Assembly: GCF_003018255.1 (NCBI RefSeq)
Contig: NZ_CP027440.1
Length of the DNA: 64,000 nucleotides
Origin: Escherichia coli
Lineage (GTDB): Bacteria > Pseudomonadota > Gammaproteobacteria > Enterobacterales > Enterobacteriaceae
Strand: one strand, 5' to 3'
Shown: one piece after another, positions 1-40,242 of the stretch
How positions within the stretch are numbered: the first letter of the stretch is position 1
Layout: the number at the start of each line of letters is the position of its first letter
Made by a program: the position numbers and the translations under genes
Notes under the pieces: generated by a model
The model's database searches: none
Seen by the model: the letters and a program-made list of their open reading frames with translations, nothing else
Told to the model about the DNA's origin: nothing

Positions 1-2317
<2,317 letters not shown>

Positions 2318-2414: not shown

Positions 2415-2534
2415 TGCCTGGCGGCCTTAGCGCGGTGGTCCCACCTGACCCCATGCCGAACTCAGAAGTGAAACGCCGTAGCGCCGATGGTAGTGTGGGG
2501 TCTCCCCATGCGAGAGTAGGGAACTGCCAGGCAT
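2415..2534 (+). rRNA. rrfE: 5S ribosomal RNA
   Basis: 120-nt match to E. coli 5S rRNA, from tgcctggcggcc to gaactgccaggcat. Confidence 0.96.
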
Positions 2535-7414: not shown

Positions 7415-9331
<1,917 letters not shown>

Positions 9332-24525: not shown

Positions 24526-25875
24526 TTACTCAAACAAATTAAAATGCAGCTTCTGCACCACCTGCTCGGCATCTTCGCCGGGCACCAGGAAGCACAGGTT
24601 ATGGCTGGATGCGCCGTAACAAATCATGCGAATGTTGAACGGTTCCAGTACGCCGAATACCTCTTTGCCAACGCCGCAGGCTTTTGACAGGTCATTGCCA
24701 ATCAACGCGACCAGCGCCAGACCTTCCTCCACTTCTACCCGGCATAGTGCAGACAGCTCCATCAGCAGAGATTGCGTCAGCAAGGTATCGCCAGTGGAGG
24801 TTGAACCGGTGGTATCAAGGGTTAATGCCACGCTCACTTCTGACGTGGTGATTAAGTCTACCGAAATATTATGCCGCGCGAGGATGCCGAAAACTTCCGC
24901 GAGGAAACCGCGAGAATGCAGCATATTCAGGCTGTGCAAAGTGAGCAGAGTCTGATTGCGACGAAGCGCCAGCGCGCGGAACAGCGGCGGATTTTCAGTT
25001 TTATTGCACACCAGCGTACCACCTGCGCGTGGGTCTTTGCTGGAGCCGACAAAGACCGGGATATCGCTGCGTACTGCGGGTAGCAACGTTGCCGGATGCA
25101 GTACTTTTGCACCAAAAGTTGCCATCTCTGCCGCTTCGGCAAACGCGATTTCATCAATGCGTTTTGCTGCGGAAACCACGCGTGGATCGGTGGTGTAGAT
25201 GCCCGGGACGTCGGTCCAGATATCAACACGAGATGCGTGTAAAGCCTCCGCCAGCAAGGCTGCCGTATAATCGCTGCCTCCACGGCCAAGCGTCGTTGTA
25301 CGACCTTTATTTTCGCTGCCGATAAATCCCTGGGTGATCACTAAGCCTTCATTGAGGCGTGGGAGCAGTTGCAGCGCGGCCAGTTCCGCCAGCGCGGCTA
25401 CATCTGGCTCTGCACGACCAAATCGGTCGTTGGTACGCATCACTTTACGTACATCAAACCATTGTGCCTGAACATCGCGTTCGCGCAGGATCTCGACAAA
25501 CAGCAGGGTCGACATCAGCTCGCCGTGGCTGACCAGTTCATCTGTCAGGGCCGGAGACGTTGCCAGCGCCGCCGCTTCTGCCAGAACAGTAATGTTCTCC
25601 AGCAGACGTTCAATCTCTTCACGGATAACGTTCGGGTAACGCAGACGTTCCAGAATGGCAAACTGGATGTTGCGAATAGCGTCGAGTTTTTCGAATCGCT
25701 CGCCAGGTTCCAGTCCTTCAGCTAAAGCGACCAGCAGATTAGTGATACCAGCAGAAGCCGAGAGGACAACTAAACGCACGTTGGCATCAGAAAGCACAAT
25801 ATCAGCGCTGCGGTTCATGGCGTCAAAATCAGCTACGCTGGTACCGCCAAATTTGGAGACAACAATTTCAGACAT
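24526..25875 (-). CDS. lysC: Lysine-sensitive aspartokinase III
   Basis: 449-aa ORF starting MSEIVVSKFGGTSVADFDAMNRSADIVLSD, recognised as LysC. Confidence 0.96.
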   Translation of the reverse strand: MSEIVVSKFGGTSVADFDAMNRSADIVLSDANVRLVVLSASAGITNLLVALAEGLEPGERFEKLDAIRNIQFAILERLRYPNVIREEIERLLENITVLAEAAALATSPALTDELVSHGELMSTLLFVEILRERDVQAQWFDVRKVMRTNDRFGRAEPDVAALAELAALQLLPRLNEGLVITQGFIGSENKGRTTTLGRGGSDYTAALLAEALHASRVDIWTDVPGIYTTDPRVVSAAKRIDEIAFAEAAEMATFGAKVLHPATLLPAVRSDIPVFVGSSKDPRAGGTLVCNKTENPPLFRALALRRNQTLLTLHSLNMLHSRGFLAEVFGILARHNISVDLITTSEVSVALTLDTTGSTSTGDTLLTQSLLMELSALCRVEVEEGLALVALIGNDLSKACGVGKEVFGVLEPFNIRMICYGASSHNLCFLVPGEDAEQVVQKLHFNLFE

Positions 25876-25959
25876 AACTACCTCGTGTCAGGGGATCCAT
25901 TTTCAGCCTTGGCACAAGGGAAGAGCGGAAGACGGGTGGGCGCAGAGCGATACTTCGCT

Positions 25960-26160
25960 ACTATTTTCACCCAGAAGTGCTCCACCACTTGCGAAACGCC
26001 CGACTGCGAACGCTTCTGGTGACAACCCAGGGGATTCAGCCCCTGTAGCCGATGATGAACGTGGCCAGCCGTTCAATCACCTCGGCGATGCACCCCCTCA
26101 GGTGTTATCACAGGACTGGCTCCTCCAACACCGTTACTTGGGCAACGCGCCTCTTCTGGC
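25960..26160 (-). ncRNA. Lysine riboswitch (L box) in the lysC 5' leader
   Basis: About 300-nt untranslated leader upstream of lysC; minus-strand sequence GAAGAGGCGCGTTGCCCAAGTAACGGTGTTGGAGGAGCCAGTCCTGTGATAACACCTGAGGGGGTGCATCGCCGAGGTGATTGAACGG... is recognised as the E. coli lysC leader. Aptamer boundaries approximate. Confidence 0.85.
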
Positions 26161-26399
26161 CTGCGCTAGCGCAGGTAGTACATTTATAAATAAAGGGTGA
26201 GCGGGGCGGTTGTCAACGATGGGGTCATGCGGATTTTTCATCCACTCCTGGCGGTCAGTAGTTCAGCTAATAAATGCTTCACTGCGCTAAGGGTTTACAC
26301 TCAACATTACGCTAACGGCACTAAAACCATCACATTTTTCTGTGACTGGCGCTACAATCTTCCAAAGTCACAATTCTCAAAATCAGAAGAGTATTGCTA

Positions 26400-28049
26400 A
26401 TGAAAAACATCAATCCAACGCAGACCGCTGCCTGGCAGGCACTACAGAAACACTTCGATGAAATGAAAGACGTTACGATCGCCGATCTTTTTGCTAAAGA
26501 CGGCGATCGTTTTTCTAAGTTCTCCGCAACCTTCGACGATCAGATGCTGGTGGATTACTCCAAAAACCGCATCACTGAAGAGACGCTGGCGAAATTACAA
26601 GATCTGGCGAAAGAGTGCGATCTGGCGGGCGCGATTAAGTCGATGTTCTCTGGCGAGAAGATCAACCGCACTGAAAACCGCGCCGTGCTGCACGTAGCGC
26701 TGCGTAACCGTAGCAATACCCCGATTTTGGTTGATGGCAAAGACGTAATGCCGGAAGTCAACGCGGTGCTGGAGAAGATGAAAACCTTCTCGGAAGCGAT
26801 TATCTCCGGTGAGTGGAAGGGTTATACCGGCAAAGCAATCACTGACGTAGTGAACATCGGGATCGGCGGTTCTGACCTCGGCCCGTACATGGTGACCGAA
26901 GCACTGCGTCCGTACAAAAATCACCTGAACATGCACTTTGTTTCTAACGTCGATGGGACTCACATCGCGGAAGTGCTGAAAAAAGTAAACCCGGAAACCA
27001 CGCTGTTCCTGGTAGCATCTAAAACCTTCACCACTCAGGAAACCATGACCAACGCCCATAGTGCGCGTGACTGGTTCCTGAAAGCGGCTGGTGATGAAAA
27101 ACACGTTGCGAAACACTTTGCGGCGCTTTCCACCAATGCCAAAGCCGTTGGCGAGTTTGGTATTGATACTGCCAACATGTTCGAGTTCTGGGACTGGGTT
27201 GGCGGCCGTTACTCTTTGTGGTCAGCAATTGGCCTGTCGATTGTTCTCTCCATCGGCTTTGATAATTTTGTTGAACTGCTTTCTGGCGCACACGCGATGG
27301 ACAAGCATTTCTCCACCACGCCTGCCGAGAAAAACCTGCCTGTCTTGCTGGCGCTGATTGGCATCTGGTACAACAATTTCTTTGGCGCGGAAACTGAAGC
27401 GATTCTGCCGTATGACCAGTATATGCACCGTTTCGCGGCGTACTTCCAGCAGGGCAATATGGAGTCCAACGGTAAGTACGTTGACCGTAACGGTAACGTC
27501 GTGGATTACCAGACTGGCCCGATTATCTGGGGTGAACCCGGCACTAACGGTCAGCACGCGTTCTACCAGCTGATCCACCAGGGAACCAAAATGGTACCGT
27601 GCGATTTCATCGCCCCGGCTATCACCCATAACCCGCTCTCTGATCATCACCAGAAACTGCTGTCTAACTTCTTTGCTCAGACCGAAGCGCTGGCGTTTGG
27701 TAAATCCCGCGAAGTGGTTGAGCAGGAATATCGTGATCAGGGTAAAGATCCGGCAACGCTTGACTACGTGGTGCCGTTCAAAGTGTTCGAAGGTAACCGC
27801 CCGACCAACTCTATCCTGCTGCGCGAAATCACTCCGTTCAGCCTGGGTGCGTTGATTGCGCTGTATGAGCACAAAATCTTTACTCAGGGCGTGATCCTGA
27901 ACATCTTCACCTTCGACCAGTGGGGCGTGGAGCTGGGTAAACAACTGGCGAACCGTATTCTGCCAGAGCTGAAAGATGATAAAGAAATCAGCAGCCACGA
28001 TAGCTCGACCAATGGTCTGATTAACCGCTATAAAGCGTGGCGCGGTTAA
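26400..28049 (+). CDS. pgi: Glucose-6-phosphate isomerase
   Basis: ORF-track 26394..28049 begins at a TTG; start moved to [24 protein letters not shown] (549 aa), the known Pgi N-terminus. Confidence 0.96.
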
Positions 28050-28062
28050 TCATTGTCGATAT

Positions 28063-28139
28063 GTAGGCCGGATAAGGCGTTCACGCCGCATCCGGCAACC
28101 GATGCCTGATGCGACGCGGTCGCGTCTTATCAGGCCTAC
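28063..28139. repeat. REP element downstream of pgi
   Basis: gtaggccggataaggcgttcacgccgcatccggcaa...gcctgatgcgacgc...gcgtcttatcaggcctac. Confidence 0.9.
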
Positions 28140-28206
28140 AGGTCGATGCCGATATGTACATCGTATTCGGCAATTAATACATAGTACGATTGATTAAATA
28201 GCCTTA

Positions 28207-28240
28207 AAAACAATGCCGACTATAAGTCGGCATTGTTTTA
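28207..28240 (+). terminator. Intrinsic terminator after pgi
   Basis: Near-perfect palindrome aacaatgccgact-ata-agtcggcattgtt followed by ttta. Confidence 0.8.
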
Positions 28241-28546
28241 TCAGATAAATCCTCTTGTCTGTCATTTAACGAAAATCATACCGTGAGGTTAATCCTAAAA
28301 TAGATTTTTAATCGTGATTGATTTCGGAAAATACGCAGAGTAATTACTTTTTATTTTATTTTAACTTCATGATTTTTAATCTTATTTATATATAAGTCAA
28401 AGCTTATATTTGATATTCATTCCAATTGTCCTAAAACTCCATCACTAATTCCCTGCGCCGTAATTCGCATGCTTTAGTTGTGTATACTCGATCCCGCCCG
28501 AAATGTTTTGGGTAAATCTCCATTCATTCAATGAAGGGAAATTGTT

Positions 28547-35865: not shown

Positions 35866-35885
35866 GGGGTTCTTCCTCATTCCAG

Positions 35886-36008
<123 letters not shown>

Positions 36009-40112: not shown

Positions 40113-40242
<130 letters not shown>

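What the first reader, a model, noticed from the sequence alone, without database searches (positions are those of the whole stretch)
25960..26160. Lysine riboswitch in the lysC leader (known element, listed for completeness)
The long untranslated region between lysC and divergent pgi is not empty: it encodes the L-box aptamer that controls lysC. This explains about 300 bp of otherwise non-coding DNA and should not be mistaken for a novel RNA.
Basis: established knowledge. Interest (0 to 1): 0.15.

Follow-up and report, generated by a model that had tools for sequence, protein, structure and literature searches.

The report
Known lysine riboswitch upstream of lysC

Summary
Confirmed and already known. 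The Rfam lysine-riboswitch model (RF00168) matches window 25967-26163 on the minus strand over its full length (99.5 bits, gathering score 30, E 2e-26). The window is E. coli K-12-type DNA, and RefSeq annotates a riboswitch at the same coordinates. 5424 of 5426 complete E. coli genomes carry it. In 45 enterobacterial leaders the aptamer helices show strong compensatory covariation, and the L2-L3 kissing loop covaries too. The expression platform (anti-P1 helix, Shine-Dalgarno sequestrator, UCUUCC/C-rich tract) is almost invariant. Published landmarks (G309 pause, RNase E Site1 at 250-253, rut near 240) all fit a transcription start at 26181, giving a 306-nt leader. Lysine binding stabilises P1, which frees the sequestrator to hide the ribosome-binding site and exposes the RNase E/Rho entry tract. 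This mechanism is taken from the literature and only checked for consistency here. Unexpected side result: 32 of 79 related species (Citrobacter, Enterobacter cloacae group, cryptic Escherichia) have a 77-79-nt leader with no aptamer. It looks like a roughly 229-nt deletion between CTGCGC repeats that E. coli still carries, and it keeps the sequestrator hairpin.

The parts
26211..26216 (-). lysC promoter -35 hexamer TTGACA, followed by the T/A-rich -10 region TTTATTTATAAAT at 26182-26194
   Evidence: Read directly from the sequence. The motif TTGACA-N12-16-TTTATTTAT was found upstream of lysC in 74 of the 80 related loci, and four of the six misses lack enough upstream sequence. The exact -10 hexamer is inferred. 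The simple promoter scan missed it because of its own rule on -10 positions.
26181..26181 (-). Transcription start (+1, G) of the lysC leader. Leader position n corresponds to window 26182-n.
   Evidence: Inferred, not measured here. It is the only origin that makes three landmarks of Ghosh et al. 2024 (PMC10946432) fit the sequence: G309 is the G of the AUG, Site1 at 250-253 reads UCUU, and the C-rich/G-poor tract spans 231-270.
26160..26175 (-). 5'-terminal hairpin +7..+22 (CCUGCGC-UA-GCGCAGG), immediately 5' of P1 and outside the Rfam model
   Evidence: Perfect inverted repeat in the sequence. The structure is kept in long-leader relatives with different arm sequences (CCTGCA, TACCTAT, AACCCGCG, TATCTGC, CCTGTGC and others).
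25967..26163 (-). Lysine riboswitch aptamer (RF00168), helices P1-P5 around a five-way junction (+19..+215)
   Evidence: cmscan 99.5 bits, full model. RefSeq riboswitch feature at identical coordinates. Covariation in P2, P2a, P3 and the P5 extension. L2-L3 kissing loop +62-66 x +114-118 covaries.
26153..26159 (-). P1 5' strand (+23..+29, CCAGAAG)
   Evidence: Rfam consensus structure mapped onto the sequence. All 7 P1 pairs are invariant in 45 of 45 leaders.
25971..25977 (-). P1 3' strand (+205..+211, CUUCUGG), the switching sequence shared between P1 (OFF) and anti-P1 (ON)
   Evidence: In ligand-free ViennaRNA folds, +209-214 pairs with +244-249 instead.
25968..25992 (-). Anti-P1 / antisequestrator 5' strand (+190..+214)
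   Evidence: Unconstrained minimum-free-energy fold of +1..+330. The two helices are 100% and 98.8% paired across 45 leaders, with only G-U-compatible single changes. Described as the anti-P1 stem in PMC10946432.
25914..25938 (-). Anti-P1 / antisequestrator 3' strand (+244..+268), which buries the UCUUCC motifs in the ON state
   Evidence: PMC10946432.
25912..25951 (-). C-rich, G-poor tract (+231..+270; 50% C, 17% G), the putative rut site overlapping the RNase E sites
   Evidence: Composition computed. PMC10946432 places the rut site near position 240, overlapping Site1.
25929..25932 (-). RNase E cleavage Site1 (+250..+253, UCUU), within the first UCUUCC copy
   Evidence: Positions 250-253 are from PMC10946432, citing Caron et al. 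2012. The sequence was read.
25919..25924 (-). Second UCUUCC copy (+258..+263), the probable RNase E Site2
   Evidence: The sequence repeat was read. The paper names a Site2, but the text I could read gives no coordinates, so this assignment is inferred.
25913..25919 (-). Shine-Dalgarno sequestrator 5' half (+263..+269, CCUUGUG). It pairs with the SD when OFF and with +190-196 when ON.
   Evidence: ViennaRNA fold of +200..+320. 97.8% paired in 45 leaders. The same hairpin is the only conserved structure in aptamer-less leaders.
25881..25887 (-). Sequestrator 3' half (+295..+301, CACGAGG), containing the SD GAGG (25881-25884)
25873..25875 (-). lysC start codon AUG (+307..+309). G309 is the reported RNA polymerase pause and Rho-dependent termination site.
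   Evidence: ORF call. G309 is from PMC10946432.
24526..25875 (-). lysC coding sequence (lysine-sensitive aspartokinase III, 449 aa), the regulated gene
   Evidence: RefSeq annotation.
26169..26174 (-). Direct repeat CTGCGC, copy 1 (+8..+13)
   Evidence: With copy 2, this is the only direct repeat of 6 nt or more that brackets the aptamer.
25940..25945 (-). Direct repeat CTGCGC, copy 2 (+237..+242), 229 nt from copy 1
   Evidence: A deletion between the copies gives a 77-nt leader, which is the length seen in aptamer-less relatives.

Best explanation
This is the E. coli lysC lysine riboswitch, a cis-acting RNA in the 306-nt 5' leader of the aspartokinase III mRNA. Without lysine, the 3' strand of P1 and the adjacent P5-proximal sequence (+190-214) pair with +244-268 (anti-P1/antisequestrator). 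The Shine-Dalgarno sequence is then free and the UCUUCC/C-rich tract is buried, so lysC is transcribed, stable and translated. When lysine binds the five-helix aptamer, P1 (+23-29 with +205-211) is stabilised and +244-268 is released. CCUUGUG (+263-269) then pairs with CACGAGG (+295-301) and hides the SD. The now single-stranded +231-262 tract becomes an entry site for RNase E (Site1 at +250-253) and for Rho, which terminates at the G309 pause. Shown here: the identity and architecture of the aptamer, its covariation, and the existence and conservation of the mutually exclusive pairings. Taken from the literature: lysine binding, translational repression, RNase E cleavage and Rho termination.
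For: RF00168 hit at 99.5 bits, full length. Identical RefSeq riboswitch annotation. 100% identity to K-12 derivatives and presence in 5424 of 5426 complete E. coli genomes. Aptamer covariation: 92.1% paired, 26 of 61 pairs compensatory, 0 of 500 shuffles as high, slid controls about 44%. The L2-L3 kissing loop covaries: G62:C118 is GC in 25, AU in 15 and GU in 5 sequences, never unpaired. The ligand-free minimum-free-energy fold forms anti-P1, and the isolated platform forms the SD sequestrator. Anti-P1 is 99-100% paired and the sequestrator 97.8% paired across 45 species. The numbering of Ghosh et al. 2024 maps consistently onto the sequence. The mechanism is described in PMC10946432. The lysC riboswitch populates multiple conformations in living E. 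coli (PMC13271884).
Against: No result contradicts it. Limits: the expression-platform helices have no compensatory double changes, so they rest on invariance and G-U-compatible single changes. The whole-leader fold z-score is only -2.04. The inner hairpin +219-239 is poorly conserved (68% paired). The transcription start is inferred from published numbering and was not measured. Ligand binding and regulation were not testable here. The primary paper (Caron et al. 2012) was not available to read.
Confidence: 0.97

Rival explanations
1. A lysine riboswitch of the Bacillus type, which works by forming an intrinsic transcription terminator rather than by SD sequestration.
For: The aptamer class is the same as in B. 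subtilis lysC, where terminator/antiterminator control is described (PMC6614840).
Against: No terminator-like stem plus U-run lies on the minus strand between the aptamer and the AUG. The only minus-strand terminator-like site in the scanned stretch lies upstream of the promoter, within pgi. The conserved downstream helix pairs directly with the SD. The literature reports translational, RNase E and Rho-dependent control for E. coli.
Confidence: 0.02
2. A decayed, non-functional aptamer remnant. Regulation of lysC would then be entirely at the promoter and by feedback inhibition of the enzyme.
For: Many close relatives manage without the aptamer, so it is dispensable in principle. lysC is also regulated at the promoter (PMC10946432).
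Against: The score is 3.3 times the gathering threshold with a full-length match. P1, the junction core and the platform are invariant across 45 species. The element is fixed in E. coli. Experimental regulation is reported.
Confidence: 0.01
3. The region encodes something else: a small protein, or an antisense or independent sRNA gene.
For: Mechanical ORFs overlap it: 181 aa on the + strand at 25655-26200 and 57 aa on the - strand at 25903-26076.
Against: Neither ORF has a Pfam match. Substitutions follow RNA pairing, not codons. Insertions of 35-130 nt are tolerated in loops in relatives. No other Rfam family hits the region.
Confidence: 0.005

Closest known systems
E. coli K-12 lysC lysine riboswitch (Caron et al. 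2012; Ghosh et al. 2024, PMC10946432)
   Same: It is this element. The sequence is 100% identical to K-12 derivatives, the RefSeq coordinates are the same, and every published landmark maps onto it.
   Different: Nothing.
Bacillus subtilis lysC L-box riboswitch
   Same: Same aptamer family (RF00168), same five-helix architecture, and the same regulated enzyme (aspartokinase).
   Different: The B. subtilis expression platform is an intrinsic terminator/antiterminator (PMC6614840). The E. coli platform is an SD sequestrator combined with an RNase E/Rho entry tract.
E. coli thiC (TPP) and ribB (FMN) riboswitches
   Same: Translational riboswitches that also modulate Rho-dependent termination through structure-dependent access to a rut site, with a pause near the start codon (PMC10946432).
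   Different: Different ligand and aptamer class. At lysC the G309 pause lifetime is reported not to depend on ligand, unlike thiC.
Aptamer-less lysC leaders of Citrobacter, the Enterobacter cloacae complex and cryptic Escherichia clades (found here)
   Same: Same promoter motif, same SD sequestrator hairpin, and the same pgi-lysC arrangement where checked (Escherichia sp. E1V33, E. whittamii, two Citrobacter).
   Different: They lack +8..+236 (5' hairpin, aptamer and anti-P1 5' strand), and there is no RF00168 hit within 4.3 kb.

Membership tests
Lysine riboswitch (L-box), Rfam RF00168 | Score at or above the curated gathering threshold of the covariance model, over the full model length | tested here: met
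   99.5 bits against 30, model positions 1-182 of 182, E 2.2e-26.
Lysine riboswitch (L-box), Rfam RF00168 | Five helices (P1-P5) around a central junction, supported by compensatory base changes | tested here: met
   61 pairs, 92.1% paired, 26 pairs with changes on both sides against 16.3 +/- 1.9 in shuffles (0 of 500 as high), slid controls 42-47%. P1 and the base of P5 are invariant, which is uninformative but compatible.
Lysine riboswitch (L-box), Rfam RF00168 | Conserved junction/core nucleotides (AGAGGNGC after P1, GGGG, GCCGA, UGUCAC, GGAGNNCU before the P1 3' strand) | tested here: met
   These positions match the model consensus (alignment) and are invariant or nearly so in 45 leaders (invariant-column list).
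Lysine riboswitch (L-box), Rfam RF00168 | L2-L3 kissing-loop tertiary contact (the feature is recalled from established structural knowledge of the class; PMC6614840 Fig. 1 legend mentions the L2-L3 interaction) | tested here: met
   +62-66 GCCAG pairs with +114-118 CUGGC. 81.8% paired against 11-40% for slid partners. G62:C118 switches to A:U in 15 sequences and G:U in 5, and is never unpaired.
Lysine riboswitch (L-box), Rfam RF00168 | Located in the 5' leader of a lysine biosynthesis or transport gene, on the same strand | tested here: met
   91 nt upstream of the lysC AUG on the minus strand.
Lysine riboswitch (L-box), Rfam RF00168 | Specific binding of L-lysine by the aptamer | not testable with these tools
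   Reported for this element in the literature (PMC10946432). Not measured here.
Translational (SD-sequestering) riboswitch with dual RNase E/Rho control, E. coli lysC type | Mutually exclusive pairings: P1 versus anti-P1, and anti-P1 versus the SD sequestrator | tested here: met
   Both conformations are recovered by folding. They are 98-100% paired in 45 species but show no compensatory changes, so the support comes from conservation only.
Translational (SD-sequestering) riboswitch with dual RNase E/Rho control, E. coli lysC type | C-rich/G-poor rut tract and U-rich RNase E sites that are exposed only in the OFF state | tested here: met
   +231-270 is 50% C and 17% G, and the UCUU of Site1 is at +250-253. 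These positions lie inside the anti-P1 helix. Cleavage and termination themselves are from the literature.
Transcription-terminator lysine riboswitch, Bacillus type | Intrinsic terminator hairpin plus U-tract downstream of the aptamer | tested here: not met
   No such site on the minus strand between 25876 and 25966.

The most novel reading that the evidence does not exclude
Nothing about the window's own element is new. The most novel reading the evidence allows concerns its evolution. The lysC riboswitch would be a dispensable module that was excised as a unit, by a roughly 229-nt deletion between CTGCGC repeats that E. coli still carries. The resulting short allele is now found in about 40% of the sampled Enterobacteriaceae species, in a pattern that does not follow the lysC gene tree (at least 9 changes). 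That pattern implies recurrent loss or horizontal exchange of the leader. The short allele keeps the SD-sequestering hairpin but has no antisequestrator, so those species would translate lysC under a constitutive or differently controlled brake.
Probability: 0.3. Interest if true: 0.4.

Novelty: already known. Interest (0 to 1): 0.1.

Why it matters
For the scan, it closes the question. About 300 nt of the lysC-pgi intergenic region is a textbook riboswitch and should not be flagged as a novel RNA. The element is biologically important because it is the model for riboswitches that combine translational repression, RNase E decay and Rho termination, but none of that is new. The side result would matter modestly if confirmed. 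Closely related species with and without the aptamer, but with the same promoter and SD sequestrator, form a natural experiment on what a riboswitch adds to promoter-level and allosteric control. It would also bear on proposals to target lysine riboswitches with antibacterials, since Citrobacter and the Enterobacter cloacae group would lack the target at lysC.

Tried and rejected
1. Long-range pairing of the leader's 5' end (+3-9 ACUACCU) with the SD region (+299-305 AGGUAGU). ViennaRNA placed it in constrained folds. In most of the 42 other long-leader loci tested the duplex is no better than shuffled sequence, for example 131 of 200 shuffles as good in E. albertii. Rejected as a conserved feature.

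2. Long-range helix +16-21 GCGCAG with +237-242 CUGCGC next to P1. The direct repeat that creates it occurs in only 9 of 42 long alleles, and the 5' hairpin arms covary on their own. Rejected.

3. Inner platform hairpin +219-239. Only 68% paired, so it is not supported as conserved. MAFFT indels there may contribute.

4. Coding potential of the overlapping ORFs. No Pfam hits.

5. My first fixed-offset alignment of upstream regions gave about 45-55% identity for many loci. This was not misalignment but true absence of the aptamer, shown by blastn and cmscan.

6. My first hand-written pair list for the platform was off by one, giving non-pairs such as TT and AC. It was re-derived programmatically before any counting.

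7. A MAFFT --auto run timed out and was repeated in fast mode.

8. Caron et al. 2012 and Rodionov et al. 2003 could not be read. Their content is cited only as relayed by PMC10946432.

9. Literature searches for reports of lysC riboswitch loss found nothing relevant (one search does not cover the lysine class). This is weak evidence of novelty because most subscription papers and databases such as RegPrecise are not searchable here.

10. Salmonella was not among the 80 loci returned, and I did not spend a large database search to fetch it.

Full report
OBSERVATION. The whole-window scan gives the same hit. The ORF listing shows lysC (449 aa, 25875..24526, minus strand) and pgi (ATG at 26400, plus strand) diverging from a 524-bp intergenic region.

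IDENTITY OF THE LOCUS. An 801-nt query spanning the region is 100% identical to E. coli K-12 derivatives (JM83 and an MG1655 derivative). It is found at 95% identity or more and at least 80% coverage in 5424 of 5426 complete E. coli genomes. RefSeq annotates a 'riboswitch' feature at L001 1838-2034. By the locus-to-window conversion (window = 28001 - locus) this is 26163-25967, exactly the cmscan hit. lysC and pgi are annotated on either side.

ANATOMY. Ghosh et al. 2024 (PMC10946432) number the leader from the transcription start. [quoted passage not shown] Setting +1 at window 26181 makes 307-309 read AUG, makes 250-253 read UCUU, and places the 50% C / 17% G stretch at 231-270. I therefore take 26181 as the start. 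This is an inference from three concordant landmarks, not a measurement. Upstream lie TTGACA (26216-26211) and the T/A-rich -10 region. This promoter motif recurs in 74 of the 80 related loci examined, and four of the six misses lack enough upstream sequence.

The leader is 306 nt and consists of the following parts:
- a 5' hairpin at +7-22
- the aptamer at +19-215
- the platform at +190-306

ViennaRNA folding of +1..+330 without constraints gives the ligand-free architecture, with +190-214 paired to +244-268 (anti-P1). Folding the platform alone gives CCUUGUG (+263-269) paired with CACGAGG (+295-301), which contains the SD GAGG. No intrinsic terminator is present downstream of the aptamer on the minus strand.

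COMPARATIVE TEST. A scan of species-representative genomes with LysC returned 80 Enterobacteriaceae loci. The 45 distinct riboswitch-bearing leaders align cleanly (A1). The counts are:

- Rfam aptamer structure: 92.1% of cells are standard pairs (42-47% when partners are slid). 26 of 61 pairs have compensatory changes, against 16.3 +/- 1.9 in shuffles (0 of 500 as high). These are concentrated in P2, P2a, P3 and the P5 extension. P1 is invariant.
- L2-L3 kissing loop (+62-66 with +114-118): 81.8% paired (11-40% when slid). G62:C118 switches to A:U in 15 sequences.
- Anti-P1 main helices: 100% and 98.8% paired, with no compensatory double changes.
- SD sequestrator: 97.8% paired, with no compensatory double changes.

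The two platform structures show only invariance and G-U-compatible single changes. That is what one expects of nucleotides constrained by two alternative partners, but it counts as conservation, not covariation.

MECHANISM. Shown here: a bona fide lysine aptamer, and two mutually exclusive downstream pairings, one of which occludes the SD. Taken from the literature: lysine binding stabilises P1. The OFF state blocks translation initiation, exposes RNase E sites, and exposes a rut site that leads to Rho termination at G309. The ON state hides these sites in the anti-P1 stem (PMC10946432). In living E. coli the lysC riboswitch populates multiple conformations (PMC13271884).

Rivals were considered and rejected:
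- A Bacillus-type terminator platform: no terminator is present.
- A decayed remnant: ruled out by the score, the invariance and fixation in E. coli.
- A coding or sRNA function: no Pfam hits for the overlapping ORFs, and substitutions follow RNA pairing.

UNEXPECTED SIDE RESULT. In 32 of the 79 leaders that could be scored (78 related loci plus the window), blastn found only the last 40-90 nt of the leader or nothing at all. In 20 such loci cmscan found no RF00168 hit anywhere in about 4.3 kb. All 20 blastn-positive loci tested gave full-length hits of 68-100 bits.

The aptamer-less loci keep pgi as the divergent neighbour where checked, the TTGACA...TTTATTTAT promoter, and the SD region, but their leaders are only 77-95 nt. 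A few are lengthened by an inserted repeat element. They include Escherichia sp. E1V33, E. whittamii, all the Citrobacter whose upstream region could be read, the Enterobacter cloacae group, Lelliottia, Trabulsiella and Pluralibacter. E. coli, E. albertii, Klebsiella, Raoultella, Kluyvera, Kosakonia, Cedecea and most Buttiauxella have the riboswitch.

On a neighbour-joining tree of the lysC coding sequence, the two states need at least 9 changes and the root is reconstructed as riboswitch-present. This is a single-gene tree, so the count is only indicative.

E. coli carries CTGCGC at +8 and +237. This is the only direct repeat of 6 nt or more that brackets the aptamer. Deleting between the copies gives a 77-nt leader, the length observed in the cryptic Escherichia. 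An alternative junction, with the hairpin kept and +23..+249 lost (79 nt), aligns less well but is not excluded.

Short leaders resemble one another (0.71-0.91 identity to the C. amalonaticus short leader) more than they resemble E. coli's virtual deletion product (0.61-0.77). They are therefore an old, coherent allele rather than recent independent deletions. No complete E. coli genome carries the short allele. The only conserved structure in the short leaders is the SD sequestrator hairpin, with C-to-U changes opposite G.

I found no report of this in the searchable literature, but that search is far from exhaustive.

VERDICT. The element is already known and annotated, and interest is low. 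The evolutionary polymorphism in relatives is recorded as a side lead.

Noticed in passing
Related loci, e.g. L003 1424-1500, L005, L007, L012, L074 (short leaders). Compare window 25945-26174.: 32 of 79 scorable lysC leaders (78 related loci plus the window) lack the riboswitch entirely. They have 77-95-nt leaders with the same promoter and SD sequestrator. They include cryptic Escherichia clades, Citrobacter and the Enterobacter cloacae group. The distribution needs at least 9 changes on the lysC gene tree.
   Followed up: partly
window 26169-26174 and 25940-25945 (minus strand, +8-13 and +237-242): CTGCGC direct repeat bracketing the aptamer. Deletion between the copies predicts a 77-nt leader, which matches the short allele. 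The repeat is present in only 9 of 42 long alleles (E. coli, Kluyvera and Cedecea types).
   Followed up: partly
window 26160-26175 (minus strand, +7..+22): 5'-terminal hairpin just upstream of P1, outside the Rfam model. It is kept as a structure in relatives with many different arm sequences. It may be a 5'-end protective stem or a helix stacking on P1.
   Followed up: partly
L082 645-1342 (E. coli strain EECO1006, blood isolate): IS1 is inserted in the expression platform between the aptamer (ends at locus 634) and the lysC start (1502). This physically uncouples the sensor from the SD.
   Followed up: partly
window 25877-25883 and 26173-26179 (minus strand): 7-nt perfect complementarity between the leader's 5' end (+3-9) and the SD/spacer (+299-305). 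It is not conserved in relatives, so it is probably chance.
   Followed up: yes
L049 and L067 (A1 columns ~190-300); also L010, L016, L019, L072 upstream of the short leader: An insertion of about 100 nt, containing ...GAATCCCGATGAACTTACTTAAGTAAGTGATTCAGGTGAG..., sits inside the P5 loop of the aptamer in Buttiauxella noackiae and Cedecea sulfonylureivorans. A similar element lies between the promoter and the short leader in some Citrobacter. It looks like an ERIC/IRU repeat, but this is from memory and was not tested.
   Followed up: no
L023, L025, L027, L030, L052-L056, L061, L069 (A1 columns ~184-313 and 417-556): Klebsiella and Raoultella leaders carry a P5 extension of about 35 nt and an insert of about 90 nt between the two halves of the SD sequestrator, which greatly lengthens its loop.
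   Followed up: no
L006 (A2 columns 395-481): E. albertii has an insertion of about 86 nt between the 5' hairpin and P1. Several other species also have long inserts there, with leaders of 390-640 nt.
   Followed up: no
window 28066-28136 (both strands); also 7418-7488, 7509-7579, 35885-35955, 40114-40184: Rfam naRNA4 hits, which are REP/BIME-type palindromic repeats. One lies just after pgi.
   Followed up: no
window 28202-28351 (minus strand): Rfam STnc430 (enterobacterial sRNA) hit at 72.8 bits, between pgi and the next gene.
   Followed up: no
window 1-2317 and 2417-2532 (plus strand): The window begins inside an rRNA operon: the 3' part of 23S rRNA, followed by 5S rRNA.
   Followed up: no
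E. coli genomes H13-H16; H12 strain WB61: Four E. coli genomes match the cryptic-clade version of the segment upstream of the lysC promoter at 75.9% over 169 nt, whereas other strains match only 42 nt. Strain WB61 covers only 77% of the lysC-pgi query, in two places.
   Followed up: no
L011: A record titled Chryseobacterium sp. 18061 carries an enterobacterial lysC locus (LysC 89% identical to E. coli, full lysine riboswitch). It is probably a mislabelled or contaminated assembly.
   Followed up: no
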